Assembly (NCBI GenBank): GCA_964602455.1 | Contig: CAZRRG010000002.1 | Coordinates: 1,100 to 65,099, forward strand | Source of the DNA: an uncultured Eubacteriales bacterium | Lineage (GTDB): Bacteria; Bacillota; Sulfobacillia; Fermentithermobacillales; Fermentithermobacillaceae | Reading direction: 5' to 3' | Length of the DNA: 64,000 nt | Shown: positions 11,533 to 62,434 of the stretch, in pieces | How positions within the stretch are numbered: the first letter of the stretch is position 1 | Layout of the letters: each line of letters starts with the position of its first letter | Notes under the pieces: model-generated | Database searches by the model: none | What the model saw: the letters and a program-made list of their open reading frames with translations, nothing else | Told to the model about the DNA's origin: nothing | Program-made: the position numbers and the translations under genes

Positions 11533-11601
11533 CTGTTTCTTCCTTGAGTTCTCTCACAAGAGAGTGCTTTTTTTGACGAACGAGAGCGGCATGGTCTTCT
11601 T

Positions 11602-25680: not shown

Positions 25681-26070
25681 ATGAAGGTCGGTATTTCCAG
25701 CAGCGGAAAGGACAGCTCGGCTATGGTGGACCCCCGCTTTGGCCGCTGCGAGTTCTTCGCAATATGTGAGACTGATGATGGCTCCTACCGGTTCATTAGG
25801 AACAATGCTCAGGACGCTGGAGGCGGAGCGGGCATAGCCGCGGCCCAGCAGTTAATTGACGAGAATGTTGAGGTAGTGTTGACCGGGAGCTTGGGTCCTA
25901 ACGCATACAGGGTGATCGAGAGCGCCGGAATAAGGGCCTACCGCGTCGGCAGTGTAGCGCTTGAGGAAGCGGTCAACCTCTTGAGTGGCGCGAAGCTGGA
26001 GGCGATTCTCGAGGCGGGCCCTGCGCATGTTGGCGTGCGGCAGGGTCCTCGCGGAGGTCTTAGTAAGTGA
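25681..26070 (+). CDS. NifB/NifX-family (dinitrogenase FeMo-cofactor-binding domain) protein
   Basis: MKVGISSSGKD...FGRCEFFAICE. GAAGGAGG RBS. Confidence 0.8.
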   Translation: MKVGISSSGKDSSAMVDPRFGRCEFFAICETDDGSYRFIRNNAQDAGGGAGIAAAQQLIDENVEVVLTGSLGPNAYRVIESAGIRAYRVGSVALEEAVNLLSGAKLEAILEAGPAHVGVRQGPRGGLSK

Positions 26071-26900: not shown

Positions 26901-27748
26901 CGGTCTTGAGCGGCAAGGGCGGAACCGGCAAAACGATGATCACCGTTGCTCTGGCGGAGTTGTTCCCCAAAGCGGTGATAGCAGACTGCGACGTGGATGC
27001 GCCCAACTTGTACCTGTACTACAACGGTAAGGACATCAAGAGTGAGCCCTTTACCGCCTCTCAGAAAGCCGTGATCGCCAAAGAGTCCTGTATAGGATGC
27101 GGTATTTGCGATGAGATCTGCCGGTTTGATGCGATAAGGGACCACACCGTCGACGAAGCCAACTGCGAAGGCTGCGGAGCATGTGTCCTGGCCTGTCCGG
27201 AGAAAGCCATTCATCTAAGACCTCAAAAAGATGCGGATGTCTTTCTCACGCAGACCAAGAAAGGCGTGCTTTCCAGGGCGAAGATGGCTGTGGGCAGTGA
27301 TGGTTCCGGAAAACTAGTTTCGCTCCTTAGAAAGAACGCCCGCGAATACCCCGATGATGAGAGCGTGATGCTCCTAGACGGTTCACCAGGGATCGGTTGT
27401 CCTGTCATATCCTCCATTACCGGAGCCAGTATGGCGCTAATCGTGACCGAGCCGACGCTATCCGGGATGGAGGACTTCATCAGAGTGGTGGACCTGTGCG
27501 ATCACTTCAGCATCCCGGCGGTGGTCTGCATCAACAAGTGGGATATCAACCCTGAGGTAACTGATGAGATAAAGCGCCGCTCCCAGGAACGAGGAATACC
27601 GGTTGTCGGTGAAGTACCTTTCGACCAAACGGTCACGGACTCCATTAACACTCTGCAGCCCATCACCGCCTATCCCGACAGCGCTGCTTGCAAAGCTGTC
27701 CTGGAGATGTGGGGCCGTCTGCAAGAGGTGATCGCTGAGGTTAAATGA
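26891..27748 (+). CDS. MinD/Mrp-like P-loop ATPase with a 2x[4Fe-4S] ferredoxin domain (tandem paralog)
   Basis: GKGGTGKTM. CIGCGICDEIC and CEGCGACVLAC. Overlapping start. Confidence 0.85.
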   Translation: MELAVLSGKGGTGKTMITVALAELFPKAVIADCDVDAPNLYLYYNGKDIKSEPFTASQKAVIAKESCIGCGICDEICRFDAIRDHTVDEANCEGCGACVLACPEKAIHLRPQKDADVFLTQTKKGVLSRAKMAVGSDGSGKLVSLLRKNAREYPDDESVMLLDGSPGIGCPVISSITGASMALIVTEPTLSGMEDFIRVVDLCDHFSIPAVVCINKWDINPEVTDEIKRRSQERGIPVVGEVPFDQTVTDSINTLQPITAYPDSAACKAVLEMWGRLQEVIAEVK

Positions 27749-28229: not shown

Positions 28230-28576
28230 TGGTGGAGGCGGAGGGAATCGCACCCTCGTCCGTTGATAACCCAGTCTCAGTCTCTACGAGCGTATCTCCG
28301 GATTTGATCTCGCCGACCGCAGCGCCCCGGAGCGGGCTCTACGTTCCGCCAGCCCGGAATTGCGTTCCCTTGAGGGTCCCGGACGTCCCCCTCAAGGTAT
28401 CTCTCCTAGGTGACGGTGACTCCGGGATAGGAGAGAAGTCTCCCGGCTCACCGGGCTGCCTAATTAGGCAGCCAGTGCGTAACTGTTGTTGGCAGTTATG
28501 GTTTTGCCGTTTGTTGGGTACGGCACCCATGCTCGCTGCTCAGACCCGACTACCAGCGTCGAACCTGGTCGCCCCC
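28230..28576 (-). ncRNA. ssrA: tmRNA (SsrA)
   Basis: Minus-strand 5' end GGGGGCGACCAGGTTCGACG and 3' end GGACGAGGGTGCGATTCCCTCCGCCTCCACCA. Internal tag ORF GGC AAA ACC ATA ACT GCC AAC AAC AGT TAC GCA CTG GCT GCC TAA, with the stop inside a hairpin. It lies immediately downstream of smpB. Confidence 0.85.
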
Positions 28577-30100: not shown

Positions 30101-31384
<1,284 letters not shown>

Positions 31385-31387
31385 TCA

Positions 31388-32941
31388 TCATCCTTCCAAT
31401 TCTTGTTCGATGAGGCTATGCCGGTCCATTTCTGCCGGTTTGGGTAGACCCAGCATCGTGAGTAGTGTCGGGGCTATATCTGCGAGTACTCCGTCAGCGC
31501 GGAGTCTGGCGTGCTTGTAGCCGTGTCCTACCAGGATGCAAGGCACCCGGTTCATGGAGTGGTAGGTATGGGCGGCGTTTGCCCCCGGAGTGAGATCCTC
31601 AACGTTGCCGTGGTCTGCCACAACCAGAACTGCCCCTCCCGCACCCAGGACTGCGTCTACAAAATCCCCGAGGCACTTATCGACGGCCTCAAGGGCCCTT
31701 ACCGCCGCGTCGTAAGCGCCGGTGTGGCCGACCATATCTGGGTTGGCGTAGTTAAGCACCACAAGATCGTAGACGCCCGACTTCACCCGGGCGATCGCCT
31801 CCTCGGTCACAGGGAAGGCGCTCATCTCGGGCTTCTGGTCGTAAGTGGCGACCTCTTTGGGTGATGGTATGAGGACACGGTCCTCGCCCGGGAAGGGTTC
31901 GTCCTTCTTGCCGTTCAGGAAGAAGGTCACGTGGGCGTACTTCTCGGTCTCAGCTATGCGAAGCTGCCTGAGACCGGCTTTGGAGACAACCTCTCCAAGG
32001 GTGTTCTCCATGGTTATGGGAAGGTACGCGTACTCTCCGCCCAAACCTTCCTCATACCTCACCATCCCGCAGTACCTCACCGTGGGAGCGTGTCCGCGGT
32101 CAAACTCCGTGAAGCCAGGCTCCACGAAAGCACGGGTTATCTCCCGGGCCCTGTCGGCGCGGAAGTTCCAGAAGATGACCGAGTCACCGTCCCTGATAAG
32201 ACCGTCGCCATCGCCCAGGACCGTGGGGATCACGAACTCGTCGGTCTCCCCGCGCTCGTAAGATGCCCGGAGGGCCTCCTGCCACCGGGGAAATACCGCG
32301 CCCTCACCGCTCGTGAGCGCGCGGTACGCTTTCTGCACCCGGTCCCAGCGCTTGTCTCTATCCATTGCGTAGAACCGGCCCTGCATCGTGGAGAGGCGAC
32401 CTACGCCTATCTCCCGCATCTTGCCCTCCAGCCGCTCAAGGTAGGTGGCGGCCGACTGTGGCGGGACATCACGACCGTCCAGGAAGGCGTGGACAAAGAC
32501 CTTCTCCTGGCCTTCTCTCTTGCAGAGTTCCAGCAATGCGTAGATATGGGTGTCGAGGCTGTGGACCCCGCCGTCCGACAATAGGCCCATTAGGTGGACC
32601 GCGGCGCCTTTAGCCTTGGCTTCCCTCACCGCGCCAAGGAGCGCCGGGTTCGTGAAGAACGAACCTTCCCTTATCGCCTTGGATATCCTGACGACATCCT
32701 GGTAGACAATGCGGCCTGCGCCGATGTTAAGGTGGCCTACGTTTGAGTCGCCCATCTGGCCGGGCATCAGCCCTACGGCTTCGCCCGACGCCTCGAGGCA
32801 TGTCGAGGGATACTCGCTGTTCAGGCGATCGAAGTTCGGTGTCCTTGCCTCACTGCAAACGTTTGGGCACGCGTCGGAGATCCCCCACCCGTCCAGAATC
32901 ACAAGGGCCACCGGGCGGGGGATCCTGTGGTCGGAACTCAT
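31388..32941 (-). CDS. gpmI: 2,3-bisphosphoglycerate-independent phosphoglycerate mutase
   Basis: Full-length iPGM. Confidence 0.95.
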   Translation of the reverse strand: MSSDHRIPRPVALVILDGWGISDACPNVCSEARTPNFDRLNSEYPSTCLEASGEAVGLMPGQMGDSNVGHLNIGAGRIVYQDVVRISKAIREGSFFTNPALLGAVREAKAKGAAVHLMGLLSDGGVHSLDTHIYALLELCKREGQEKVFVHAFLDGRDVPPQSAATYLERLEGKMREIGVGRLSTMQGRFYAMDRDKRWDRVQKAYRALTSGEGAVFPRWQEALRASYERGETDEFVIPTVLGDGDGLIRDGDSVIFWNFRADRAREITRAFVEPGFTEFDRGHAPTVRYCGMVRYEEGLGGEYAYLPITMENTLGEVVSKAGLRQLRIAETEKYAHVTFFLNGKKDEPFPGEDRVLIPSPKEVATYDQKPEMSAFPVTEEAIARVKSGVYDLVVLNYANPDMVGHTGAYDAAVRALEAVDKCLGDFVDAVLGAGGAVLVVADHGNVEDLTPGANAAHTYHSMNRVPCILVGHGYKHARLRADGVLADIAPTLLTMLGLPKPAEMDRHSLIEQELEG

Positions 32942-33723
32942 GGCTGGGTCCTTCCCTTCCGCACCTCAAGCACCATCTTCGCAAACTCCCCGGCGTCGAG
33001 GCTGGCTCCACCGACCAGGGCGCCGTCGATCTCCTCGTGGGCCATGAACGAGCGGATGTTGGTCGATTTCACGCTGCCCCCGTAGAGCACCCGCACCGTC
33101 TCCCCCGCCGGCTCGCCCAGCATCCCGGAGACAGTCCTGCGCACGTGCGCGATAACCTCGCGGGCATCTTCGGGCTTTGCCTCTTTCCCGGTTCCTATGG
33201 CCCAGACAGGCTCATAGGCGATCACAACGTTATCTATGTCGCCCGGCTTTACCTCGGAAAGCCCCAGGCGAGTCATCTCCCCTACAACCTCAAGGGCCTT
33301 GCCGTCTTCCCGCTGCTCCAGCGTTTCGCCCACGCAGAGCACCGGACGCAGGCCATTATCCAGCGCGGCCCGCACTTTCTCCCGGGCCATCTCGTCGGTC
33401 TCGCCGAACAGGTGCCGGCGCTCGGAATGCCCCACGATGACGTAGGAGCATCCGGCATCCCGAAGCATGGACGGCGACACCTCGCCGGTGAAGGCGCCCT
33501 TCTCCTGCCAGTAGAGGTTCTGGGCGCCAACCTTGACCGGGTAGCTCGAGAACGCAGCCGCTACGGCGGGGATCGCCGTGAATGGCGGGCATACCAGGAT
33601 CTCCGGCCACTCGGCGCCGCCGGTGACCTCCAACATCTGCGGCACGAACGCCCCGGCGAATGCCAGGGCGTCAGGTATAGTCTTATTCATCTTCCAGTTT
33701 GCGGCCAGAAGAGGTACACGCAA
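32938..33723 (-). CDS. tpiA: Triose-phosphate isomerase
   Basis: AYEPVWAIGTGK. Confidence 0.95.
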   Translation of the reverse strand: MRVPLLAANWKMNKTIPDALAFAGAFVPQMLEVTGGAEWPEILVCPPFTAIPAVAAAFSSYPVKVGAQNLYWQEKGAFTGEVSPSMLRDAGCSYVIVGHSERRHLFGETDEMAREKVRAALDNGLRPVLCVGETLEQREDGKALEVVGEMTRLGLSEVKPGDIDNVVIAYEPVWAIGTGKEAKPEDAREVIAHVRRTVSGMLGEPAGETVRVLYGGSVKSTNIRSFMAHEEIDGALVGGASLDAGEFAKMVLEVRKGRTQP

Positions 33724-33759
33724 CGGTATCTTCCTCCCGACGTTTTCTTGCTTTCGGCG

Positions 33760-34944
33760 CTAGGCCTTGTCCTGAAGACAGGCCACGCCGGGAAGCGTCC
33801 GTCCCTCCAGGAACTCGAGGGATGCTCCGCCACCGGTGGAAAGGTGACTGATCCGCTCGGCCACCCCGGACACCTCGATCGCCGCCAGCGAATCGCCGCC
33901 GCCGACAACAGAGAATCCGGAGACGCCGGCCACAGCGGCAGCGATCTCCATGGTCCCGGCTCCGAAGGGCTCAACCTCGAACACGCCCATAGGACCGTTC
34001 CAGAAGACCGTCTTGGCTGCCGCAATCTTTGAGGCGAACTCCTTGCGGGTCTTGGGGCCGATATCGAGCGCCGCCTGGTCCGAGGGGATGCCCGAAACGT
34101 CGACAACCTTCACAGGCGTCCCCACTTCGGGGGCCGGCGCACAGACCACGTCTACGGGAAGCAACAGGTCCTTGCCCGCCTTCTCTGCCTTGGACATGAT
34201 CTCGCGAGCGCTCTCGACCATCGCCGGCTCAGACAGCGACTTGCCCACGTTGTACCCCTTTGCCAGGAGGAACGTGTTGGCCATGCCGCCGCCGATGACC
34301 AGGCTGTCGACCTTATCCAGGAGGTTATCCAGCACTTTCAGCTTGTCTGAGACCTTGGCCCCGCCTATCACGGCCACGAAGGGCCGCTCGGGCGACTCCA
34401 TGAGTCGCGACAGCGCCGAGACCTCCTTCTCCATGAGGAACCCCGCGCACGCGGGGATGAAAGCAGCGATACCGGCTGTGGAAGCGTGGGCCCTGTGGGC
34501 TGCGCCAAACGCGTCGTTTACGAACAGATCGGCCAGGTTAGCCATCTGCCTGGCGAGACCGGGATCGTTCTTCTCTTCGCCGGCGTGGAACCGGACGTTC
34601 TCAAGTAAGACAACGTCCCCGGCCTTCATGTTGGAGACAAACGCTTCTACCTCAGGCCCAACGCAGTCGTTGAGCTTCGCGACTGGCCTGCCCAGAAGCT
34701 CCGATAGCCGGACAGCCACCGGGTCCAACCTCAGGTCTTCCACCACGGCTCCCTTGGGTCTTCCCAAGTGAGAGGCGAGGATCACTTTCGCGCCGTTCTC
34801 CACGAGGTATCGGAGCGTGGGAAGCGATGCCCTGATCCTGGTGTCGTCGCCGATCTTGCCGCCTTTTATGGGCACGTTGTAGTCAACCCTTACAAAACAC
34901 CGCTTGTCCGCAACCGGGATGTCCCGCACGGTCAACTTGGGCAC
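33760..34944 (-). CDS. pgk: Phosphoglycerate kinase
   Basis: Full-length PGK. Confidence 0.97.
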   Translation of the reverse strand: MPKLTVRDIPVADKRCFVRVDYNVPIKGGKIGDDTRIRASLPTLRYLVENGAKVILASHLGRPKGAVVEDLRLDPVAVRLSELLGRPVAKLNDCVGPEVEAFVSNMKAGDVVLLENVRFHAGEEKNDPGLARQMANLADLFVNDAFGAAHRAHASTAGIAAFIPACAGFLMEKEVSALSRLMESPERPFVAVIGGAKVSDKLKVLDNLLDKVDSLVIGGGMANTFLLAKGYNVGKSLSEPAMVESAREIMSKAEKAGKDLLLPVDVVCAPAPEVGTPVKVVDVSGIPSDQAALDIGPKTRKEFASKIAAAKTVFWNGPMGVFEVEPFGAGTMEIAAAVAGVSGFSVVGGGDSLAAIEVSGVAERISHLSTGGGASLEFLEGRTLPGVACLQDKA

Positions 34945-34967
34945 GGTGCGCGCCTCCTTGTTCTCTC

Positions 34968-35969
34968 CTAGAGTCCTTTGGAAGCTATGAAGGAGATGAG
35001 GTCAACCAAGCGGCAGCAGTAGCCCCACTCATTGTCGTACCAGGCCAGAACCTTGGTGAGCCCGCCGACAACCATGGTGGAGATGGCGTCAACCGCCGAC
35101 GAATGGTTCATACCCTTGTAGTCGGACGAGACCAGGGGCTCGTAGTTGATGTCGAGGATGCCCTTCAGATAGCCCTTGGCCGCGGCATCGAAGGCCCCGT
35201 TGATATCTTCCACGGTCGCAGGCTTCTTGAGCCGGAGGGCGAGGTCGACTATGGAGACAGTCGGCGTAGGCACTCTGAACGCGATGCCGTTCAGTTTACC
35301 CTTGAGCTGGGGCATGACCAGGCCGATCGCTCTCGCGGCTCCGGTCGAGGTCGGGATTATGTTCAGGGCGCCTGCTCTGGCCCTGCGGAGATCCTTGTGC
35401 GCAAAGTCCAGGATTACCTGGTCATTTGTATAAGAGTGAACGGTGGTCATAAGACCGTCCTCGATTCCGAAGGAATCGTCCAGCACTTTGGCGACCGGGG
35501 CAAGGCAGTTCGTGGTGCAGGAAGCGTTGGAAATCACCTGGTGGTTCGCGGGATCGTACTTGTCATGGTTCACGCCCATCACGATCGTGATGTCCTCGCC
35601 CTTTGCGGGAGCCGAGATCACGACCTTCTTGGCTCCGGCCGCAACGTGCGCCATGGCTTTCTCTTTCTCGGTGAACCTACCGGTGGACTCGAGGACCACA
35701 TCGACGCCAAGGTCTTTCCACGGAAGCTTTCCGGGATCCCTTTCGGCGAAGACCTTCACCTCGCGGCCATCTACGGTGAAGCCATTCTCCGAAGCTTTAA
35801 CTTCCGCTCCAAGGGTGCCGTAGTTGGTGTCGTACTTCAGAAGATGAGCAAGTGTCCCGGGATCAGTGAGGTCGTTCACCGCCACAATCTCAATGTCCGT
35901 CCTACCCATTGCCGCTCTAAAGAAACGACGTCCAATGCTGCCAAATCCGTTGACACCCACCCTAACCAT
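34968..35969 (-). CDS. gap: Glyceraldehyde-3-phosphate dehydrogenase
   Basis: MVRVGVNGFGSIGRR...SNASCTTNCL. ATG 9 nt after GGAGG (the ORF track's upstream extension is rejected). Confidence 0.95.
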   Translation of the reverse strand: MVRVGVNGFGSIGRRFFRAAMGRTDIEIVAVNDLTDPGTLAHLLKYDTNYGTLGAEVKASENGFTVDGREVKVFAERDPGKLPWKDLGVDVVLESTGRFTEKEKAMAHVAAGAKKVVISAPAKGEDITIVMGVNHDKYDPANHQVISNASCTTNCLAPVAKVLDDSFGIEDGLMTTVHSYTNDQVILDFAHKDLRRARAGALNIIPTSTGAARAIGLVMPQLKGKLNGIAFRVPTPTVSIVDLALRLKKPATVEDINGAFDAAAKGYLKGILDINYEPLVSSDYKGMNHSSAVDAISTMVVGGLTKVLAWYDNEWGYCCRLVDLISFIASKGL

Positions 35970-36089
35970 TGAGCGCAACCTCCCGCTTTGTGCTGTGCCG
36001 GATCGCTCTCGGTAGCTCCCGGCTTCCACATTATATCTCTTTTTTCCTAAATGGCCCAACCAAATAAGCCACACATCAGTCCAAATCTG

Positions 36090-54065: not shown

Positions 54066-54103
54066 GGTAAGAAACGAAACGGGACCTCTTTCGAGGTCCC
54101 GTT
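54066..54103 (-). terminator. Terminator of rpsU
   Basis: ACGGGACCTCgaaaGAGGTCCCGT followed by TTCGTTTCTT on the minus strand. Confidence 0.65.
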
Positions 54104-54126
54104 CATTCCTGTCTTGCAGTGGTATA

Positions 54127-54309
54127 TCAGCGGAAACGATGCTTTCTCTGGCGCGCGGCCTCAGACTTCTTCTTTCGCCTCACGCTCGGGCTCTCATAGT
54201 GCTCATGCTTGCGCACGTCGCGAAGGACTCCGGACCTTTGGCACTCTCTCTTGAAGCGGCGCAGGGCGCTGTCGAAATTCTCATCTTTACCTACTCTTAT
54301 CTCTGGCAA
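54127..54309 (-). CDS. rpsU: 30S ribosomal protein S21
   Basis: (M)[28 protein letters not shown]... TTG start after GGAGGGAGGG. Confidence 0.85.
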
Positions 54310-54422
54310 GTCGTATCGTCCCTCCCTCCGCCGCAGGTATTTCCCCGCTCCCTCATTAACATTTGGATTGTACACTAGCTGCCTGCACACGGTCAATTAC
54401 CAGTACCCCCGGGATGGGGCCT

Positions 54423-55547
54423 TCACTCCACCCGGCGAACTTCCCTCACTTCGTCTGCTTGCCGCGTTACCGCCAGCTCGACCAACCGTTGGACGAGGGC
54501 CGGGAACGGCAGTCCCGATGCCTCCCACAGCTTGGGGTACATGCTGATGCTGGTGAAGCCTGGTATCGTGTTGAGCTCGTTCACGAGGACGGCGTCCGTC
54601 TCCGGGTCGACGAAGAAGTCCACCCGGGCCATCCCCTTGCATCCGGTAGCCTTATATGCGGCAACAGCCACGTCCTGTACGCGCCGCATCAGCTCCGGGG
54701 AGAGAGGCGCGGGTATCGCGTACTGGGTGGTCTCGTCGATGTACTTGGCCTCGTAGTCGTAGAACTCGCGGCCCGGCAGTATCTGGCCGGCGACCGACGC
54801 CACCGGTTCGTCGTTTCCGAGGACACTGCACTCCACCTCAAGAAGGCCTTCCTGGGAGGGCTCAATGAGCGCCCGCGTGTCATACAGAAACGCGGCGTCC
54901 AGCGCCTTTGCCATCGCGTCCGGGCGCTTCACTTTGGTTACTCCGAGGCTGGAACCCGAACCCGATGGCTTTACGAAGACAGGATACTTGATGAGTCCGG
55001 AAAGGGCGTTCAGGACCTCGGGGCCCTTCGTCCTCCAGGCGAATCTCTCAACCGTGAATCCGGGGACGTGTGGAACGCCGTGGGTCTGAAGCAGCCGCTT
55101 GGTCGTGCTCTTGTCCATGCAGACGGCCGACGCCAACGGAGGCGCGCCGATGTAGGGGATCCCCGACATCTCCAGGAGCCCCTGTACGGTCCCGTCTTCT
55201 CCATAAAGCCCGTGGAGCACGGGAAAAACGGCGTCTACAGGGACTTTGTACAGGCCGCCGGGCCCCTCCACCCAAAGCCCTTTTCTCGATGGGTCGGGGA
55301 GTATTGCGCAAGCCGGACCGAGGTCCGACGTGACAACGGCCGCCCGGTTACCCAGGAACCCGGAGCAGTCGCCCATGAAAACCCAGTGTCCATCCCTGGT
55401 AATGCCTGCTCCCACAACATCCATGCCGGTCTCCAGAGCGGCGCGGTATATCGAGCGCGCCGAGAGCACCGATATCTCGTGCTCTCCAGATCTGCCGCCG
55501 AACAGAAGACACAATCTTGTTTGGTTCACCGATACCACCCGCTTCAC
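54423..55547 (-). CDS. ddl: D-alanine--D-alanine ligase (canonical)
   Basis: (M)KRVVSVNQTRLCLLFGGRSGEHEISV... Full Ddl. GTG start 17 nt after the mtaB stop. Confidence 0.92.
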   Translation of the reverse strand: MKRVVSVNQTRLCLLFGGRSGEHEISVLSARSIYRAALETGMDVVGAGITRDGHWVFMGDCSGFLGNRAAVVTSDLGPACAILPDPSRKGLWVEGPGGLYKVPVDAVFPVLHGLYGEDGTVQGLLEMSGIPYIGAPPLASAVCMDKSTTKRLLQTHGVPHVPGFTVERFAWRTKGPEVLNALSGLIKYPVFVKPSGSGSSLGVTKVKRPDAMAKALDAAFLYDTRALIEPSQEGLLEVECSVLGNDEPVASVAGQILPGREFYDYEAKYIDETTQYAIPAPLSPELMRRVQDVAVAAYKATGCKGMARVDFFVDPETDAVLVNELNTIPGFTSISMYPKLWEASGLPFPALVQRLVELAVTRQADEVREVRRVE

Positions 55548-55561
55548 GGAGATTAGCGCAG

Positions 55562-56872
55562 TTACGAGATGAGTTGCCCCGTGACGAGACCTTCTCGGGC
55601 GCGGTCTACCCTCACGGCCACGATCTTGCCCTTGTGCTCGTCGCCACCGGCAAACTCGCACCGCATGTAGTTGCGGGTCACCCCGGTCAAGAGTCCGCCT
55701 CGAGTCCTGTCGTCCTCAGCCAATACCTCAACAACCCTGCCCTCATGTTTACGGTGGAACGACAGGGAGAGTTCCTTTCCCAGCCTCAAGAGACGCCCTA
55801 CTCTCTCGTCTTTCTCAGCCTCAGGCACTTTGCTCTGCGAGGAAAACGCGCGAGTGCCCGGGCGCGGCGAGAACTTGAAGGCGTGGATGCGGGAAAACGA
55901 AGCATGAGCAGCCACTTTGAGCGTCTCCTCGAAGTCGCCTGCACTCTCGCCGGGGAAGCCGGCGATTATGTCTGTCGTAATGCCTGCGTTGGGCGCGATC
56001 TTCCGGGCTTCCTCCACCACCCGGAGGAATCCGCGCACGTCGTAGCGCCGGCCCATCGCGCGGAGGACCTTGTCGCTCCCGCTCTGAAGCGGAAGGTGAA
56101 GGTGAGCGCAGACCTGTGGGAGGCGCAGGCAGTCCAGAAGGTCGTCATCGACATCGTGAGGCTCCAGCGAGCTTATGCGCAGGCGGATCAGCCCCTCTAC
56201 CCTGCTGACCTGCCTCACCACTTCCGGAAGCGAGGGAAGGGTGTCGGGTTCCTCCTTGCCGTACAGGCCGATATGGGTCCCGGTAAGGACGATCTCCTTG
56301 TAGCCTTTGGCGACCAGCGCCCTGGCTTCATCCATGATCCTTTGCGGCGGCCTCGAGCGGGACGGGCCCCTGGCGAAGGGCACGATGCAGTAAGCGCAAA
56401 AGTCGCCGCATCCTTCCTGGATCTTCAGGAATGCCCTGGTGAGACTTGGAGTCTCCACAGGAGTCTCCTCGAAGGCCGGAGCCCCTCCTCTCGAAGACGC
56501 GTGGGGTGTGACTCCGACTGCGGTCTCCCCCGACTCCAGGGCGGAGAGGGCCAGATCGGCTAAGGCGCCGCGGCCCAACACCCCGCCAACAGCAATAACG
56601 CCGGGGATGTCCGCTACATCCCGGGGGGCCACCTGGGAGTAGCAACCGCTGACAACCACCTTGGCCCCGCTCCTTGCCGCGGCCCTTATGGCCTGCCGGC
56701 ACTTGGCGGCGCCCTTTGCGGTTACCGCGCAGGTGTTTATGACAACAACGTCGCTGGGGCCTTCGTCAACCACCCGAAACCCCTTGCGCTCGAAGCTTTC
56801 CTTTAGGAAATCGGTATCGTACTGGTTCTGCTTGCAGCCGAAGGTACGAAAGGAGACCGTGTACTCGGGCAA
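55562..56872 (-). CDS. mtaB: Radical-SAM methylthiotransferase, MtaB/YqeV-like
   Basis: TFGCKQNQYD (MTTase N-terminus), CGDFCAYC radical-SAM motif, TRAM C-terminus. Synteny with rsmE and dnaJ. Confidence 0.85.
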   Translation of the reverse strand: MPEYTVSFRTFGCKQNQYDTDFLKESFERKGFRVVDEGPSDVVVINTCAVTAKGAAKCRQAIRAAARSGAKVVVSGCYSQVAPRDVADIPGVIAVGGVLGRGALADLALSALESGETAVGVTPHASSRGGAPAFEETPVETPSLTRAFLKIQEGCGDFCAYCIVPFARGPSRSRPPQRIMDEARALVAKGYKEIVLTGTHIGLYGKEEPDTLPSLPEVVRQVSRVEGLIRLRISSLEPHDVDDDLLDCLRLPQVCAHLHLPLQSGSDKVLRAMGRRYDVRGFLRVVEEARKIAPNAGITTDIIAGFPGESAGDFEETLKVAAHASFSRIHAFKFSPRPGTRAFSSQSKVPEAEKDERVGRLLRLGKELSLSFHRKHEGRVVEVLAEDDRTRGGLLTGVTRNYMRCEFAGGDEHKGKIVAVRVDRAREGLVTGQLIS

Positions 56873-57026: not shown

Positions 57027-57737
57027 TTAACGGCCGGCGATGCAGGCGGATACGGTGCAGAGGACAAACCCCTTGTCCCTGAGCCCGTCGATGATGCTGG
57101 GCAGCGCCTCTACGGTCGGCTCCGTGGGATGCATGAGCACAAGGGCCCCGTTGACGGCCCCCGCGACGGCCCTCTTCCAGACGGCGTCAGAAGGGGGCAG
57201 CCTCCAGTCCACGGTATCGACGGTCCACATGATGGTCAGGTAGCCGGCTTCCGACGCGTACATCACGGTGTCGCCGGTCCACTCGCCGTAAGGGGGAGCG
57301 AAGAGTTTGGACGGACGGGCGCCTCCGGCGGCAACCGCTATCCTCTCTTCGCCGCTCTGGATCAGCCGGTGGAGGTTCTCCCTGGTCATGCCTTCGACGT
57401 GTGAGTGCACGGCGCCGTGGTTGCCGACTTCATGGCCGTCGGCGACCATGCGGGCCACCAGAGGAGCGTTCTTCTCGGCCCAAGACCCTGTTGGGAAGAA
57501 GGTGGCGCTCACGTTCTTCTCGGCCAGAATGTCCAGGATGGCGGGAAGATACTCTTCGCCCCAATCCACGTTGAACATGAGGGCGACGTTGGGAACGCTG
57601 CTGTTTCCACGATAGATAGGCGCGACTCCCGCCATGACGGAACGTGCCTCGAACATGCCCAGGAAGTCTGCCGCGCAGGCGGCCCAGAGGATTATGAAGA
57701 TGAGGAGACAGGCAAGATAGGCTCGCTTGATCAGCAC
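57027..57737 (-). CDS. Polysaccharide deacetylase (NodB), secreted
   Basis: Signal/TM N-terminus. FNVDWGEE...TFFPTG...GNHG. Confidence 0.8.
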   Translation of the reverse strand: MLIKRAYLACLLIFIILWAACAADFLGMFEARSVMAGVAPIYRGNSSVPNVALMFNVDWGEEYLPAILDILAEKNVSATFFPTGSWAEKNAPLVARMVADGHEVGNHGAVHSHVEGMTRENLHRLIQSGEERIAVAAGGARPSKLFAPPYGEWTGDTVMYASEAGYLTIMWTVDTVDWRLPPSDAVWKRAVAGAVNGALVLMHPTEPTVEALPSIIDGLRDKGFVLCTVSACIAGR

Positions 57738-57807: not shown

Positions 57808-58575
57808 TTAGCGATGCCTGGATAGGTAGTGCACCAGGAGTGAGGCGGCAGCGATGGAAGCCGTCTCGGCCTTCATAATGTAGGGGCCCAGGGAGACCGG
57901 CACGAAGCCCGCGGAGAGCGCCCTCTCCACTTCTTCCGCTTCCAGCCCGCCTTCGGGGCCTATAAGAATGTAGGCTTCCCGTGTGCCTGCGTCTTTCGCC
58001 AAAGCCTGCTCCAGCGGAACCGTCATGCCTTCGTGCTCGTACGCCAAAAGGCGCGCGCCTGTCTCGGCGGCCATCCGGTCCATGAGGCCGGCGAAGGAGA
58101 TGACCTCCCGCACCTCTGTCACTGCTATGCGCCCCGACTGCTCCGATGCCGCCTTAGCGACCTTCTGCCACCTAATTCTCCGCTCTGCTGCCTTCTCCTG
58201 ATCTAGCCTGGGAATAGTGCGTCTCGTGACAACGGGAGTGATGGACGCGACCCCGATCTCGGTCGCCTTCTCAACCACCAGGTCGAAGTTCTGACCCTTG
58301 AGGAGCGACGCCAGGAGGTGGACCTTCCACGGGGGAGTGACGGCACGGGTTCTGCCGGTTATCTCGGCAACAATCCTGTCGGGCAAAGACTCGGTAACTT
58401 CAGCGAGGTAGAGCGTGTCGCCCAGGACGGCCCTGAAGGTCTCTCCAACTGAAAGACGCTGGGCTTTGGCATGGCGGAGCACGTCCCGCGCAAGCACGAT
58501 CTGGTTGCCGAGCAGCATGTCAGGCTCAACGAAGTATTGCGGCGGGGTGTGAGAATCTACCGGACGGTCACTCAT
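57808..58575 (-). CDS. rsmE: 16S rRNA (uracil1498-N3)-methyltransferase
   Basis: RsmE fold, LLIGPEGG. Confidence 0.9.
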
Positions 58576-59729
58576 TTTCCGGCGGTCCCGTCACCCTTAA
58601 ACCGGTCGAAGAAGGACTTCTGTTCCGCGAACGTCTCGCCGTCCATCTTGCCCAGTTCCTTAAGGGCTTCCTTTTCTTTAGCGGTCAGTTTGGTCGGTAC
58701 GCGGACATTGACCCTTACCAGCATGTCGCCCCTGCCCTTGGAGCGGAGCCTGGGCATACCCTTGCCTCTCATGCGCAGCACAGCGCCCGGTTGAGTTCCT
58801 GCCGGCACATCCAGATCGGCCTTGCCGTCAATGCACGGGACGGACACCGATCCGCCAATGGCCGCGAGGGGGAAGCTGACAACCCTGTCCAATATGAGGT
58901 CGTCGCCCTGGCGCTGGAAGGTGCTATGCTGCTTCACGAAGACAACAACGTAGAGGTCTCCGGGACCGCCTCCGCGCAATCCGGCGTTCCCCTGCCCTGA
59001 CAACCTGAGCCGGAGTCCCGAGTCCGCGCCCGGCGGCACCTTCACAGTGACCGTCCGCGTCTTCCTGACCTGACCGGCGCCTCCGCACTCTCGGCAGAGC
59101 TTCTCGATGTATTTGCCCGTCCCTTCGCACTTTGCGCAGGGAGTTGTCACCAGCATCTGGCCAAAGATGCTGCGCTGGGTGGTGGAAACCTGGCCGGTAC
59201 CGTGGCAGGCAGGACATGTGACGACCTTGGAGCCCGGTTCGGCGCCGCTGCCCCCGCAACGATCGCAGGTCTCGGTGCGTGGAATCCTGACATCCCTGTC
59301 GACGCCTGTGAAGGCCTCCTCCAGGGTAATCTCCATCTCCATCTCAAGGTCCTGGCCACGGCGAGGCCCCGTGTCGGGACGGCGTCTTCCGGCGCCAAAG
59401 AGCTCCTCAAAGCCACCAAATAGGTCTCCAAAGGGGAAGCCTCCCGCCCCTCCGAAGGGACGGCCAAATGGATCGCCTTGGCCTGCACCGCCGCCACCGC
59501 CGGCAAACGGGCCGTTGGCGTTGCCGTACGCGTCGTAGTTGGCCCGCTTGGTCTCGTCAGATAGCACCTCGTAGGCCTCGTTCACCTCTTTGAACTTAGC
59601 CTCGGCGGTAGGATCCCCGGGATTGGCGTCGGGATGGTATTTCTTCGCCAGGGTACGGAACGCTTTCTTTATCTCATCCTGTGACGCGCCTTTGTCGACG
59701 CCCAGTACCTCGTAGTAGTCCTTGCTCAA
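58572..59729 (-). CDS. dnaJ: Chaperone DnaJ
   Basis: J-domain HPD, G/F region, four CxxCxGxG repeats. Confidence 0.95.
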
Positions 59730-61306
59730 GATAGAGTTTCCTCCAGTGAACCCTTGGACTCGGGTGCCTTCTCCCCGTCATCTTTCTTCTTGATGATCGT
59801 GTCGATTCGGAGTATGGCACAAGCTATCTCAAGAGCGGCCTTAAGCGCGTGGAGTTTGACCGGGGCCGGGTCAAGGATCCCCATCTCCATCATGTCGGCC
59901 ACTTCGCCGCTGTCACAATCTATGGCAAGGTTGTGGTTGCCGGTCTCAGTCTGCTGGGAGATGGCGTCGCCCACCTTTTCAAGCGGGTTGAACCCCGCGT
60001 TGGCCACGATCTGGGCGAGAGGCCGCTTCAGAGCCTCCACCACACATGTGAGTCCGTATGCCTGCATTCCCTTCTGGGAAAGCCTCATCTTCTCAACTTC
60101 GCGGGCACAGGCAAGTTCGATCGCTCCCCCGCCTGCGACTACGCCGCCCTTCACCGCAGCCTGGACCGAGGACGCGGCGTCAGTGCAGATGCGCTCGCGC
60201 TCGCCCCTGACCTCCTGGGTGCTGGCTCCTACAAGTATGGTGGCCATTGGCTTGCCGCTGCCGCCCAGGATGCGGATGTTCTCCAACTTCTGATCCTGGT
60301 ATGCGCGCTCGGCTGAGCCCAGGTACTTGGCCAGCTCACCGGCCGGCTTGTGGAGAGCCGTGCGCTTCACGGCCCGCGCCCCTGTGTGCTCGCAGACCTT
60401 GCGCAGTTCGGCGGATGAGACCCTGGTCACGACCATAGCTCCGGCATCGGTGAGGATCTCTTCCGCTTCATCGGAGATGCCCTTGTCGACAACCACCAGC
60501 CCTACGCCGAGAGAGATGATCTTGGCCAGGTCCTCTTTGAACTCTTTTTGCAGCTCCAGATACTTTTGGAAACCGGCTTCGGTGGACAGCGCCTCTTCCT
60601 CGACTTCCTCGGGCTCGAGGGCGTCGTCGACACACAGGATCTTGGGCGCGTCCACGCTCTCGGGCATCGCCTCGTTGAGACGTTCCTTATCTATGATGAT
60701 GCCGGCGAAAACTTCGTTGTCAGCGCCCTCTTTGGCCACGATCGTGTCGGCCAGTTTGAACCTAGGATCGAGGAGTTTCTCCCTGCCCACCATCTTTGCC
60801 GCTTCGCATACAAGATCGGCTATGTCCTTGTTGCCGCGGCCCGCGACCAGAGCGACCCGGTGAACGATAGGGTCGGTCACGTCATCCACCTTGACCGCTT
60901 TCTCGGCGACAAACTCCAACGACCTCTTTACGCCTGCCACAACGCCGTCTATCAGCCTTGTGACGGGGACGCCCCGGACAGCTTGGTTCACACCCTCGGA
61001 GAGCAGCGCCCCTGCCATGATGGTGGCGGTGGTTGTGCCGTCTCCTACCTCTTCCTCCTGGGCGCGGGCGGTGTTAATGACCATCTTGGCCGCGGGATGG
61101 TTCACGTCCATCCTAGTGAGGATGGTCATCCCGTCATTGGTGATGATGACTTCGCCAAACCGATCAACCAGCAGTGTATCAAGGCCTTTGGGGCCGATGG
61201 TCCCCTCGACTGCCGAGGCGATGGCCCTTACTGCGGCGGCATTGGTAAGCAGCGCGCCCAGTCTCTCGTCAATCTCGGAGTTCTGGGATGCCTGTTTCAG
61301 AGTCAA
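59726..61306 (-). CDS. Group II/III (archaeal thermosome/CCT-type) chaperonin
   Basis: [39 protein letters not shown], and C-terminal [30 protein letters not shown]. It has no GroEL features. TTG start 5 nt after AGGAGGGA. Tightly coupled to hrcA (23-nt gap) and dnaJ (4-nt overlap). Confidence 0.85.
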
Positions 61307-61329
61307 CTACGTCCCTCCTGTGCGGCCCC

Positions 61330-62355
61330 TCATTCGTCGGCAGAGAAACACCTGGAGAGCTTCTGCTCAAACTGGCGGACCAGGGCGACGGCCTTCGAGT
61401 AGTCCATCCTCCTTGGCCCCAGTATGCCTACTTTGCCTTCGGTGTTGCCGAACGTGAAGACGCCGAACACGAGGGAGAGATCCTGTACTGCCTCCACCTC
61501 GTTCTCTTTTCCTATGCGGATGAACGGGTCTTTGTCGAGGCCGTCCTTTACCAGCGCAGCCTGGATGACAGCGTCAGACTCCACGGCGCAGAGGAGGTCC
61601 TTAACCTTGTCGACGTCCTTGAACTCTGGGTGGGACAGGAGATTCGCGGTACCGCCGACATAGAGGCGGTCGTGCTCGGGCTCGCTAACCAACCCGCGCA
61701 GGAATTCCATTACCTGGTCAACTATCCGGGCGTAACGGCGCGCTTCTTCCTTCAGGAGCTCGTAAGCCCTGTCGGCCACCTTCTCCACCGCCAGGTTGGT
61801 CAAGTGGCGCGAGAGAAGCGCCGATATGTGATCCAGTTCCTCCCGCGGCATCGGCGGGACCTCGATCTGGCAGCTCTCGACGAACCCCACGTCCGTGACA
61901 ATGACGAGTAGAGCCTGCTCCGCGCTGATGGGTATCAGGTGAATGGACTTATAGGTAACGGTCTCAGACTCGGGACCGAGGATAAATCCAAGGTAGTTGG
62001 AGGTTTCAGAGATCGTGCGGACAGTCTCTTTGAGGAGCGAGACCACGTCCTTCACTCTTCTGCGGAAGAGCGATTCGATGGCGCGAGAGTCATCCTGGGA
62101 AAGGCCTCGGCTGGGCATGAGTTCATCCACGTAGAAGCGGTAACCTCTGTCCGAAGGGACCCTTCCTGACGAAGTGTGGGGCTTGTCGAGGTAGCCGGTC
62201 TCCTCCAAGTCGGCCATCTCGTTCCTTATGGTCGCGGGACTGACTCCGAGCCTGTACCTTCGCGCTATAACCCTGGAACCAACTGGCTGGCCGGTCTCGA
62301 TGTGTTCCTCGACCACCGCCTTCAGGACTTCCGCTTTCCTGTCGTCGAGAGTCAC
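61330..62355 (-). CDS. hrcA: Heat-inducible transcription repressor HrcA
   Basis: Full HrcA. GTG start after GGAGGGGG. Confidence 0.93.
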   Translation of the reverse strand: MTLDDRKAEVLKAVVEEHIETGQPVGSRVIARRYRLGVSPATIRNEMADLEETGYLDKPHTSSGRVPSDRGYRFYVDELMPSRGLSQDDSRAIESLFRRRVKDVVSLLKETVRTISETSNYLGFILGPESETVTYKSIHLIPISAEQALLVIVTDVGFVESCQIEVPPMPREELDHISALLSRHLTNLAVEKVADRAYELLKEEARRYARIVDQVMEFLRGLVSEPEHDRLYVGGTANLLSHPEFKDVDKVKDLLCAVESDAVIQAALVKDGLDKDPFIRIGKENEVEAVQDLSLVFGVFTFGNTEGKVGILGPRRMDYSKAVALVRQFEQKLSRCFSADE

Positions 62356-62368
62356 TCGGCCCCCTCCT

Positions 62369-62395
62369 TTAGCACTCGTGAAGCGGGAGTGCTAA
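62369..62395. promoter_or_regulatory. CIRCE operator (perfect TTAGCACTC-N9-GAGTGCTAA)
   Basis: ttagcactcGTGAAGCGGgagtgctaa lies directly upstream of the hrcA RBS. Confidence 0.9.
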
Positions 62396-62404
62396 CCTAG
62401 ATGC

Positions 62405-62434
62405 AAAATAGCACGGGATTAGGAAGAGTGTCAA
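62405..62434 (-). promoter_or_regulatory. sigA promoter of the hrcA operon (TTGACA-18-TATTTT)
   Basis: Minus strand: TTGACActcttcctaatcccgtgcTATTTT, immediately followed by CIRCE. Confidence 0.6.

What the first reader, a model, noticed from the sequence alone, without database searches (positions are those of the whole stretch)
59726..62434. Archaeal-type chaperonin sits where grpE-dnaK normally lie in the HrcA/CIRCE heat-shock operon
The window contains a sigA promoter (TTGACA-18-TATTTT), then a perfect CIRCE (TTAGCACTC-N9-GAGTGCTAA), then hrcA. A 526-aa thermosome/CCT-type chaperonin follows 23 nt later, and dnaJ overlaps its stop by 4 nt. In Bacillus and Clostridia the conserved order is hrcA-grpE-dnaK-dnaJ, and the rest of this locus (rsmE, mtaB, rpsU) keeps Bacillus synteny. 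In this organism the two Hsp70-system genes are therefore absent from this locus and replaced by a group II/III chaperonin, while the Hsp70 co-chaperone DnaJ is retained. Bacterial archaeal-like ('group III') chaperonins are rare; they have been reported in Carboxydothermus, in a dnaK-operon context. A version with no grpE-dnaK between hrcA and dnaJ would put this chaperonin directly under HrcA heat-shock control, which raises the question of what DnaJ partners with here.
Basis: partly seen in the sequence, partly recalled or inferred. Interest (0 to 1): 0.75.

Follow-up and report, generated by a model that had tools for sequence, protein, structure and literature searches.

The report
Bacterial thermosome-like chaperonin operon lacking dnaK
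This heat-shock operon carries a known kind of bacterial "archaeal-like" (group III) chaperonin, but an entire uncultured class of Bacillota has deleted the neighbouring grpE and dnaK genes while keeping dnaJ fused tightly behind the chaperonin. That makes it a new operon variant, not a new kind of system.

Summary
On the minus strand lie a sigma-A-type promoter, one perfect CIRCE operator, hrcA, a 526-aa Cpn60/TCP-1 chaperonin 23 nt later, and dnaJ overlapping its stop by 4 nt. The 64-kb window contains no grpE or dnaK.

The chaperonin is a clear group III member. It scores 673 bits to the resurrected group III ancestor, 507 to the Carboxydothermus protein and about 230 to thermosomes. It has the short nucleotide-sensing loop with Arg.

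"Replacement" is the wrong reading. In 51 of 80 species surveyed the operon is hrcA-cpn-grpE-dnaK-dnaJ, so the chaperonin was already there. In 28 species, plus one with a broken dnaJ, the operon is hrcA-cpn-dnaJ. These form one clade: Ca. Fermentithermobacillia (GTDB DTU015) plus a basal grade.

Some basal members keep an intact ~90-aa ORF between cpn and dnaJ. It is DnaK subdomain IIB, a relic showing that grpE-dnaK were deleted in place.

The arrangement is not an assembly artefact. It recurs in independent assemblies and on contigs of about 800 kb.

The DnaJ J-domain stays under strong purifying selection (HPD intact in 27 of 27; dN/dS 0.02-0.10). A DnaK very probably exists elsewhere in these genomes, but I could not test this directly.

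Verdict: new variant of a known kind, moderate interest.

The parts
62405..62434 (-). Sigma-A-type promoter: TTGACA, an 18-nt spacer ending in TGC (extended -10 TG), then TATTTT
   Evidence: The sequence was read directly. It is the best promoter-like site in 53.5-64 kb, matching 10 of 12 positions with the TG present. Function is inferred, not shown.
62369..62395 (.). CIRCE operator, the HrcA binding site: TTAGCACTC-GTGAAGCGG-GAGTGCTAA. It begins 9 nt downstream of the -10 hexamer and ends 13 nt before the hrcA start codon.
   Evidence: It is the only match in the window, with none in 100 shuffles. In 26 of 26 variant loci and 51 of 51 canonical loci that include the upstream DNA, a CIRCE with conserved arms (perfect in all variant loci but one) and a freely varying spacer lies at the same place.
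61330..62355 (-). hrcA, heat-inducible transcription repressor (341 aa, GTG start)
   Evidence: Pfam HrcA E 1.1e-50. It is 96% identical to the orthologue in L004/L009.
59726..61306 (-). Group III (bacterial thermosome-like) chaperonin, 526 aa, TTG start 23 nt after the hrcA stop
   Evidence: Pfam Cpn60_TCP1 E 2.9e-111. PDB ranking: 9RWQ (the group III ancestor ACIII) 673 bits, 5X9U (the Carboxydothermus group III chaperonin) 507, thermosome about 230, CCT about 170. It has the short nucleotide-sensing loop with Arg157, lid deletions and pivot Leu442.
58572..59729 (-). dnaJ, a class A J-domain protein (385 aa). Its TTG start overlaps the chaperonin TGA stop, which suggests translational coupling.
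   Evidence: Pfam hits to DnaJ, DnaJ_CXXCXGXG and DnaJ_C. It is 47% identical to E. coli DnaJ. The HPD motif is intact, and J-domain dN/dS against L009 is 0.02.
57808..58575 (-). rsmE, a 16S rRNA methyltransferase, overlapping the dnaJ stop by 4 nt. The prmA gene that separates dnaJ and rsmE in canonical operons is missing.
   Evidence: Pfam Methyltrans_RNA E 2.9e-43. PrmA is present at this position in Sporomusa locus L028.
57027..57737 (-). Polysaccharide deacetylase inserted between rsmE and mtaB
   Evidence: Pfam Polysacc_deac_1 E 8e-28. The same insertion is present in relatives.
55562..56872 (-). mtaB, a radical-SAM tRNA methylthiotransferase
   Evidence: Pfam UPF0004 plus Radical_SAM plus TRAM.
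54423..55529 (-). ddl, D-alanine-D-alanine ligase
   Evidence: Pfam Dala_Dala_lig_N and Dala_Dala_lig_C. The gene call was taken from locus L002 and mapped onto the window.
54077..54396 (-). rpsU (54127-54396) with its own promoter-like site (its -35 hexamer at 54396-54391). The only strong intrinsic terminator of the region lies at 54104-54077.
   Evidence: Ribosomal_S21 call in L002. Promoter and terminator scan.

Best explanation
This is a class I (HrcA/CIRCE-controlled) heat-shock operon of an uncultured Bacillota organism. The organism belongs to the candidate class Fermentithermobacillia (GTDB DTU015).

**Proposed mechanism.** At normal temperature HrcA binds the CIRCE inverted repeat that overlaps the transcription start of a sigma-A promoter. 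When unfolded protein accumulates, HrcA loses activity and the operon is transcribed (inferred from the Bacillus model, not shown here). The transcript encodes HrcA, a group III chaperonin and DnaJ. The chaperonin is predicted to be a GroES-independent, lidded, 2x8-subunit ATP-driven folding cage like the Carboxydothermus protein. DnaJ translation is coupled to the chaperonin stop codon. rsmE and further genes follow, with no strong terminator before rpsU.

**Origin.** The ancestral group III operon was hrcA-cpn-grpE-dnaK-dnaJ-prmA-rsmE-mtaB. In the common ancestor of one clade, grpE and nearly all of dnaK were deleted in place. Some basal members still carry a stand-alone DnaK subdomain-IIB mini-gene between cpn and dnaJ. 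In the DTU015 lineage, including this window, even that is gone and cpn abuts dnaJ.

**Role of DnaJ.** DnaJ remains a fully constrained J-domain protein. It most likely still serves a DnaK encoded elsewhere in the genome (inferred, not shown) and may also hand clients to the co-expressed chaperonin.
For: **Anatomy.** The promoter, CIRCE and gene calls are confirmed.

**Group III identity.** The PDB ranking is 673 bits (9RWQ, identified as ACIII in PMC12696368), 507 bits (5X9U), 295 bits (ACII) and 232 bits (thermosome). The alignment to 5X9U is gapless through the lid and the alpha6-alpha7 loop. Group II proteins carry 6 extra residues there. Arg157 corresponds to Ch-CPN R155 and Leu442 to L439 (features as defined in PMC5635000).

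**Operon survey of 80 GTDB species loci.**
- 51 loci are hrcA-cpn-grpE-dnaK-dnaJ.
- 28 loci, plus L015 with a broken dnaJ, are hrcA-cpn-dnaJ, with no DnaK or GrpE match within +-10 kb.
- In 18 of these 28 loci cpn and dnaJ overlap by 1-4 nt.

**Single clade.** The variant loci form one split in 100 of 100 bootstraps of a concatenated HrcA+Cpn+DnaJ+MtaB NJ tree. The DTU015 subclade is also supported 100 of 100.

**In-situ deletion.** An ORF of 84-106 aa between cpn and dnaJ in L025, L027, L031, L035 and L048 matches DnaK residues about 201-281 (hmmsearch E 2e-16 to 4e-6). The family has 22 protein clusters and was found between cpn and dnaJ in all eight loci examined. It passes the Pfam HSP70 threshold. 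Its AlphaFold model (pLDDT 86) superposes on DnaK lobe IIB at 0.7-0.8 A over 79 residues.

**Real arrangement.** Two independent Logan assemblies are identical to the window. Relatives carry it on contigs of 781-836 kb and in a closed 2.3-Mb genome.

**Regulation.** CIRCE has conserved arms and a variable spacer in 26 of 26 variant loci and 51 of 51 canonical loci.

**DnaJ constraint.** HPD is intact in 27 of 27 readable sequences. The ratio of J-domain to C-terminal divergence is 0.70 in variant loci and 0.68 in canonical loci. J-domain dN/dS is 0.02-0.10 within the variant clade.
Against: - No dnaK or grpE was actually located in any genome of the variant clade. I could only read the window plus +-10 kb around the operon in relatives, about 730 kb in total including redundant copies. 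My one targeted DnaK protein search returned only Negativicutes-type DnaKs.
- An in-place deletion requires either a second dnaK copy or tolerance of DnaK loss. That leaves room for true loss of the Hsp70 system.
- Monophyly of the variant clade from the chaperonin alone is only moderately supported (104 of 200 bootstraps).
- Heat induction, co-transcription, oligomeric state and folding activity are all inferred from homologues.
Confidence: 0.8

Rival explanations
1. The whole clade has lost the Hsp70 system (DnaK and GrpE) completely. DnaJ survives because it works without Hsp70, for example by delivering clients directly to the co-translated group III chaperonin. The J-domain would then have a new partner.
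For: - grpE-dnaK were deleted in place, not moved as a block, as the IIB relic shows.
- No DnaK or GrpE match in the window or in any +-10 kb flank of 28 variant species.
- cpn and dnaJ are translationally coupled in 18 of the 28 loci.
- Loss of the DnaK system has a precedent in two thermophilic Aquificales (Warnecke 2012, cited in PMC8215388), and Bu02, the closed-genome member of the clade, is a predicted thermophile (PMC10215811).
Against: - The only known function of a J-domain is to stimulate the Hsp70 ATPase through the HPD motif. Here HPD is intact in 27 of 27 sequences, helix II is conserved, and J-domain dN/dS is 0.02-0.10, no more relaxed than in dnaK-containing relatives.
- The two Aquificales that lost DnaK also lost all J-proteins and GrpE (PMC8215388).
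- Less than 5% of any one of these genomes was inspected.
Confidence: 0.08
2. The hrcA-cpn-dnaJ junctions are an assembly or binning artefact (a chimeric join), and grpE-dnaK really lie in between.
For: The window comes from a metagenome-assembled genome, and such joins do occur. One relative assembly (L007) shows a broken dnaJ.
Against: - Identical junctions occur in two independent Logan assemblies.
- The same order occurs in 28 species, including a closed genome and contigs of about 800 kb.
- The genes overlap by 4 nt with in-frame, full-length products.
- Sequence divergence across the junction is continuous.
Confidence: 0.01
3. A canonical Bacillus-type hrcA-grpE-dnaK-dnaJ operon had grpE-dnaK replaced by a chaperonin acquired (recently) from archaea.
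For: The flanking synteny is Bacillus-like. The protein is thermosome-like, and an archaeal origin of group III as a whole has been proposed (PMC12696368).
Against: - The chaperonin is much closer to bacterial group III (507-673 bits) than to any archaeal thermosome (232 bits or less).
- It occupies the same slot after hrcA as in 51 species that still have grpE-dnaK.
- A dnaK relic lies downstream of cpn in basal relatives.
- Chaperonin and host-gene phylogenies are congruent for the clade.
Confidence: 0.03

Closest known systems
Group III chaperonin operon of Carboxydothermus hydrogenoformans and other Bacillota: hrcA-cpn-grpE-dnaK-dnaJ (Techtmann and Robb 2010; An et al. 2017, PMC5635000; PDB 5X9U/5X9V)
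   Same: - Same protein family: 507 bits to 5X9U, with a gapless lid and a short nucleotide-sensing loop carrying Arg.
- Same slot directly after hrcA.
- Same CIRCE/HrcA control.
- dnaJ downstream.
   Different: - grpE and dnaK are absent.
- cpn is translationally coupled to dnaJ.
- prmA is also missing.
- The published statement is that all group III genes but one lie within the DnaK operon (PMC5635000). I found no paper describing a dnaK-less version, but the 2010 paper was not readable here.
Bacillus subtilis heptacistronic dnaK operon: hrcA-grpE-dnaK-dnaJ-yqeT(prmA)-yqeU(rsmE)-yqeV(mtaB), with a sigma-A promoter and CIRCE (from my own knowledge of Homuth et al. 1997; not checked here)
   Same: - Promoter, then CIRCE, then hrcA as the first gene.
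- dnaJ, rsmE and mtaB in the same order.
- Wider synteny (spoIIP upstream; rpsU, yqfC/D, phoH downstream).
   Different: - Contains a group III chaperonin.
- Lacks grpE, dnaK and prmA.
- Has a polysaccharide deacetylase and ddl inserted.
Archaeal thermosome and eukaryotic CCT (group II chaperonins)
   Same: Cpn60/TCP-1 fold, a built-in lid region, the GDGTTT ATP-binding motif, and no groES partner gene nearby.
   Different: Scores are only about 230 and about 170 bits. The window protein lacks the 6-residue nucleotide-sensing loop extension and its Lys, and has lid deletions. It is bacterial and regulated by HrcA.
Aquificales that lost the DnaK-DnaJ-GrpE system (Warnecke 2012, as summarised in PMC8215388)
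   Same: A thermophile-associated bacterial lineage in which dnaK and grpE have disappeared from their ancestral locus.
   Different: Those species lost every J-protein as well. Here dnaJ is retained under strong purifying selection, and genome-wide absence of dnaK has not been shown.

Membership tests
Group III chaperonin (An et al. 2017) | Member of the Cpn60/TCP-1 superfamily | tested here: met
   PF00118 E 2.9e-111, matching residues 29-508 to profile positions 1-489 of 490.
Group III chaperonin (An et al. 2017) | Sequence closer to the group III clade than to group II or group I | tested here: met
   673 bits to 9RWQ (ACIII according to PMC12696368), 507 to Ch-CPN 5X9U, 295 to ACII, 232 to thermosome 1A6D and about 173 to CCT. 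No GroEL appears among the best 60. No formal three-group phylogeny was built.
Group III chaperonin (An et al. 2017) | Short alpha6-alpha7 loop, without the 6-residue nucleotide-sensing loop extension of group II, and with an Arg (Ch-CPN R155) contacting the gamma-phosphate | tested here: met
   The alignment to 5X9U is gapless here, with VAGRGNKD matching IAGRGDER (Arg157). ACII and thermosome carry 3+2+1 extra residues in this stretch.
Group III chaperonin (An et al. 2017) | Built-in lid with deletions relative to group II (Ch-CPN residues 223-263) | tested here: met
   The alignment to the Ch-CPN lid is gapless, whereas group II sequences show insertions of 3+1 residues. This rests on sequence only; no structure was modelled.
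Group III chaperonin (An et al. 2017) | Hexadecamer (2x8), GroES-independent, ATP-dependent refolding | not testable with these tools
   Needs purified protein. The inference rests on the close match to Ch-CPN (507 bits, near-gapless alignment) and on conservation of pivot Leu442 (L439 in Ch-CPN).
Group III chaperonin (An et al. 2017) | Usual context (not strictly defining): encoded inside the hrcA-grpE-dnaK-dnaJ operon | tested here: not met
   hrcA upstream and dnaJ downstream are present, but grpE and dnaK are absent. 51 of 80 surveyed species have the full context.
HrcA/CIRCE class I heat-shock operon | CIRCE inverted repeat TTAGCACTC-N9-GAGTGCTAA between a vegetative promoter and the first gene | tested here: met
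   A perfect match lies at 62369-62395, 9 nt after the -10 hexamer, with none in 100 shuffles. It is conserved in 77 of 77 related loci.
HrcA/CIRCE class I heat-shock operon | HrcA repressor encoded | tested here: met
   PF01628 E 1.1e-50.
HrcA/CIRCE class I heat-shock operon | Heat-inducible transcription, with HrcA binding to CIRCE | not testable with these tools
   Needs RNA-seq or EMSA.
Class A (type I) J-domain protein DnaJ | J-domain with HPD, a Gly/Phe-rich region, four CXXCXGXG zinc-finger repeats and C-terminal domains | tested here: met
   Pfam DnaJ 2e-30, DnaJ_CXXCXGXG 2e-16 and DnaJ_C 2e-49. The HPD motif and the Gly/Phe stretch are visible in the sequence.
Class A (type I) J-domain protein DnaJ | A cognate Hsp70 (DnaK) in the same genome | not tested
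   Only the window and +-10 kb flanks of relatives could be read. Indirect support comes from J-domain dN/dS of 0.02-0.10.
Group II chaperonin (thermosome/CCT), considered | Extended nucleotide-sensing loop with a conserved Lys | tested here: not met
   The loop is 6 residues shorter and carries Arg instead.
Group I chaperonin (GroEL), considered | GroEL-like sequence with an adjacent groES | tested here: not met
   No GroEL chain appears among the top 60 PDB matches. The neighbours are hrcA and dnaJ, with no Cpn10 gene.

The most novel reading that the evidence does not exclude
The candidate class Fermentithermobacillia (DTU015) and its basal relatives may have no Hsp70 or GrpE at all, yet keep a fully constrained DnaJ translationally coupled to a thermosome-like chaperonin. 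DnaJ, including its J-domain, would then work directly with the group III chaperonin. In some relatives it might also work with a domesticated stand-alone DnaK IIB lobe. This would be the first bacterial lineage with a J-protein but no Hsp70, echoing the thermosome-only proteostasis of hyperthermophilic archaea.
Probability: 0.07. Interest if true: 0.85.

Novelty: new variant of a known kind. Interest (0 to 1): 0.5.

Why it matters
Group III chaperonins have been proposed to cooperate with DnaK/DnaJ only because their genes sit in the dnaK operon (PMC5635000, PMC5220055). That proposal has not been tested.

This clade is a natural experiment. A whole class-level lineage removed grpE and dnaK from the operon but kept the chaperonin and dnaJ adjacent, translationally coupled and under the same CIRCE operator. 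This suggests that the chaperonin-DnaJ pairing is itself under selection.

The clade offers organisms and proteins with which to test two things. One is whether DnaJ feeds clients to a group III chaperonin. The other is whether DnaK is dispensable when such a chaperonin is present.

The stand-alone DnaK IIB mini-gene in basal relatives is a datable intermediate of the deletion. It may also be a new small chaperone-network protein, because lobe IIB of DnaK binds GrpE and the ClpB middle domain (structures 1DKG and 6W6E appear among the fold matches).

If dnaK proves absent from the whole genome, the finding would be of high interest.

Tried and rejected
1. **Looking for dnaK elsewhere in these genomes.** I searched the 5.8-billion-protein database with the DnaK of the nearest canonical locus (L057). 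The best 120 hits were all Negativicutes-type DnaKs and none matched. The result is uninformative, not negative.
2. **Literature.** The coal-fire paper describing Bu02 and its supplements do not mention chaperones. Techtmann and Robb 2010 is not in the library, so I could not learn what the published "one exception" is. The supplements of An et al. 2017 do not give it either. A search for stand-alone Hsp70 fragments in papers found nothing.
3. **Relics in the window.** I looked for a grpE or dnaK relic in the window and in DTU015 loci and found none. cpn and dnaJ overlap, so there is no room for one.
4. **Apparent gap in L059.** The 321-nt "gap" between cpn and dnaJ in L059 is a frameshift in that assembly, not an extra gene.
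5. **Chaperonin-only tree.** It gave only 52% bootstrap support for a single variant clade. I replaced it with a four-protein concatenation.
6. **Structure prediction of the window chaperonin.** I judged it unnecessary because crystal structures of a close homologue exist (5X9U/5X9V; 507 bits).

Full report
**Observation.** The finding lies on the minus strand. Reading 5' to 3':
- TTGACA (62434-62429), an 18-nt spacer ending in TGC, then TATTTT (62410-62405). This is the best sigma-70-type match in the last 10.5 kb and has an extended -10 TG.
- A perfect CIRCE, TTAGCACTC-N9-GAGTGCTAA, starting 9 nt later at 62395-62369. It is the only match in the window even with 3 mismatches allowed, and none of 100 shuffles gave one.
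- hrcA at 62355-61330 (Pfam HrcA E 1e-50).
- After 23 nt, a 526-aa Cpn60/TCP-1 ORF at 61306-59726 (E 3e-111). It has a TTG start behind an AGGAGGG ribosome-binding site.
- dnaJ at 59729-58572, whose TTG start overlaps the chaperonin TGA stop.
- rsmE, which overlaps the dnaJ stop, then a polysaccharide deacetylase, mtaB, ddl and rpsU. The only strong terminator follows rpsU.

tblastn with E. coli DnaK, four Bacillota DnaKs and eight GrpEs found no dnaK or grpE anywhere in the 64 kb. A Pfam survey of the rest of the window found no other chaperone gene and showed Bacillus-like synteny.

**Not an artefact.** The identical protein and the same gene order occur in two independent Logan assemblies of different sequencing runs, at 100% identity across hrcA, cpn and dnaJ. 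Relatives at 90%, 80% and 76% chaperonin identity carry the same order in the middle of contigs of 817, 781 and 836 kb.

**What the chaperonin is.** Against all PDB sequences, the matches rank as follows:
- 9RWQ, 673 bits. [quoted passage not shown]
- 5X9U/5X9V, the Carboxydothermus hydrogenoformans group III chaperonin, 507 bits.
- The group II ancestor, 295 bits.
- Archaeal thermosomes, about 190-230 bits.
- CCT subunits, about 150-175 bits.
- No GroEL in the top 60.

The hallmarks that An et al. 2017 (PMC5635000) give for group III can be read from the alignments:
- The alpha6-alpha7 loop aligns without gaps to Ch-CPN and carries the gamma-phosphate Arg (VAGRG, Arg157, equivalent to R155).
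- Group II proteins have six extra residues in that loop.
- The lid aligns without gaps to Ch-CPN but shows deletions relative to group II.
- The inter-ring pivot Leu (L439) is conserved as Leu442.

The protein is therefore a group III chaperonin. This is a known family, and its members were already known to lie in the HrcA-regulated dnaK operon (PMC5635000, PMC5220055, PMC5904260).

**How the operon compares.** One scan of 185,579 species genomes with the window protein returned 80 loci with +-10 kb of flank. I annotated them by tblastn with the window proteins, DnaK and GrpE.
- Fifty-one loci are hrcA-cpn-grpE-dnaK-dnaJ-prmA-rsmE-mtaB. They include Sporomusa and other Negativicutes, Peptococcaceae, Tepidanaerobacter and Thermoanaerobacterales. 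GrpE and PrmA were confirmed by Pfam in L028.
- Twenty-eight loci, plus L015 with a broken dnaJ, are hrcA-cpn-dnaJ-rsmE with no DnaK or GrpE match in the locus.

The chaperonin therefore does not replace grpE-dnaK. It sits in its usual slot, and grpE-dnaK (and prmA) are missing.

The variant loci form one split in 100 of 100 bootstraps of a concatenated HrcA+Cpn+DnaJ+MtaB tree. With the chaperonin alone the support is 104 of 200. Within the variant group, a 100%-supported subclade contains:
- the window;
- MAGs named Candidatus Fermentithermobacillaceae;
- the closed genome of Ca. Fermentithermobacillus carboniphilus Bu02, the first complete genome of GTDB class DTU015 and a predicted thermophilic fermenter.

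In that subclade cpn and dnaJ overlap by 1-4 nt in 18 loci. The remaining variant loci form a basal grade.

**Evidence for deletion in place.** In five basal loci (L025, L027, L031, L035, L048), the 280-365 nt between cpn and dnaJ hold an intact ORF of 84-106 aa. The evidence that it derives from dnaK is:
- It aligns without gaps to DnaK residues about 201-281 (hmmsearch E 2e-16 to 4e-6; blastp down to 3e-17).
- A profile search found 22 protein clusters of 79-119 aa, some named "Hsp70 family protein" by NCBI.
- In the further genomes examined, the gene again lies between cpn and dnaJ with 0-15 nt spacers.
- It passes the Pfam HSP70 threshold at profile positions 229-302.
- Its AlphaFold model (pLDDT 86) superposes on subdomain IIB of the DnaK nucleotide-binding domain at 0.7-0.8 A over 79 residues.

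This piece of dnaK sits exactly where dnaK lies in the canonical operon. The ancestor of the clade therefore lost grpE and both ends of dnaK in place, and the DTU015 lineage later lost the remnant too. The fragment stays open, well folded and tightly packed across sequences as little as 25-30% identical. This suggests it was kept as a small protein rather than decaying as a pseudogene (inference).

**Regulation.** A CIRCE lies 36-88 nt upstream of hrcA in every related locus that includes that DNA (26 of 26 variant, 51 of 51 canonical). In the variant loci both arms are perfect in all but one (L031, one mismatch), and the 9-nt spacer varies freely. This is the pattern expected of a conserved protein-binding operator. 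The mechanism itself (HrcA repression relieved on heat shock) is inferred from the Bacillus paradigm and was not tested.

**What DnaJ partners with.** I could not read whole genomes, so the presence of dnaK elsewhere is untested. One database search with a DnaK from the nearest canonical locus returned only Negativicutes-type proteins.

The indirect evidence is strong:
- The HPD motif is intact in all 27 readable DnaJ sequences of the variant clade, as in 47 of 47 canonical ones.
- The J-domain diverges relative to the rest of the protein at the same rate in both groups (0.70 against 0.68).
- J-domain dN/dS within the variant clade is 0.02-0.10.

The only known role of a J-domain is to trigger the Hsp70 ATPase. 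The two bacteria known to lack Hsp70 also lack all J-proteins and GrpE (PMC8215388). I therefore rate a dnaK elsewhere in the genome at roughly 0.9, and true loss of the system at under 0.1.

**Verdict.** The thing itself is an HrcA/CIRCE operon with a group III chaperonin, which is known. What is new is a clade-wide variant in which grpE-dnaK were deleted in place while cpn and dnaJ became translationally coupled. A DnaK-IIB mini-gene survives as an evolutionary intermediate in relatives. I found no description of this variant in the six papers of the library that mention group III chaperonins, though the founding 2010 paper could not be read. Interest is moderate (0.5). It would be high only if dnaK proves absent from the whole genome.

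Noticed in passing
L025:~11595-11850; L027:~1695-1950; L031, L035 and L048 (between cpn and dnaJ); L089:10001-10282; L091:10001-10261: A stand-alone mini-gene of about 85-105 aa lies between the group III chaperonin and dnaJ in basal relatives of the window's clade. It is homologous to DnaK residues about 201-281, which form subdomain IIB of the nucleotide-binding domain. The family has 22 protein clusters, the ORFs are intact, and the predicted fold superposes on DnaK lobe IIB at 0.7-0.8 A. It is absent from the window itself. Its function is unknown. In DnaK, lobe IIB is the surface that binds GrpE and the ClpB middle domain.
   Followed up: yes
window 57808-58575 / 58572-59729 junction; 57027-57737; 54423-55529: prmA separates dnaJ and rsmE in canonical group III operons and in B. 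subtilis. It is missing here, and rsmE overlaps the dnaJ stop. A polysaccharide deacetylase is inserted between rsmE and mtaB, and a ddl gene between mtaB and rpsU. One basal relative (L091) has a truncated 158-aa PrmA.
   Followed up: partly
window 1737-1875 (-), upstream of ORF 628-1656 (-): A c-di-AMP riboswitch (ydaO/yuaA type, 90 bits) precedes a second D-Ala-D-Ala-ligase-like ATP-grasp gene. Its neighbours on the other side, on the same strand, are a beta-lactamase-family protein, a gamma-glutamyltranspeptidase and an M14 carboxypeptidase. Together these look like a possible cell-wall or peptide turnover cluster.
   Followed up: no
window 28230-28576 (-); 10819-10891 (+): A tmRNA gene (147 bits) lies next to the glycolysis block gap-pgk-tpi-pgm-eno (30101-36074, minus strand). 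There is also a single tRNA gene.
   Followed up: no
window 26067-27748 (+): Two adjacent paralogous genes encode MinD/ParA-type P-loop NTPases (CbiA/ParA Pfam hits) with embedded 4Fe-4S ferredoxin domains.
   Followed up: no
PDB entry 9RWQ: The PDB molecule name of 9RWQ reads "Ancestral Group II Chaperonin (ACII)", the same as 9RWP. The paper (PMC12696368) states that 9RWQ is ACIII, the group III ancestor. This looks like a labelling slip that could mislead automated annotation.
   Followed up: partly
L029, L045, L048, L057, L077 (record titles): Several contigs carrying this typically Bacillota operon belong to MAGs labelled Ignavibacteriales, Patescibacteria, Pseudomonadota, Chloroflexota or Sumerlaeota. 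These are probably mis-binned contigs rather than real occurrences outside Bacillota.
   Followed up: no
L007:11584-12719; L059:11380-11860; L015: In three relatives' assemblies dnaJ or the 3' end of cpn appears broken by frameshifts. A sister assembly of the L007 organism (L006) has dnaJ intact, so for L007 at least these are probably assembly errors rather than pseudogenes.
   Followed up: partly
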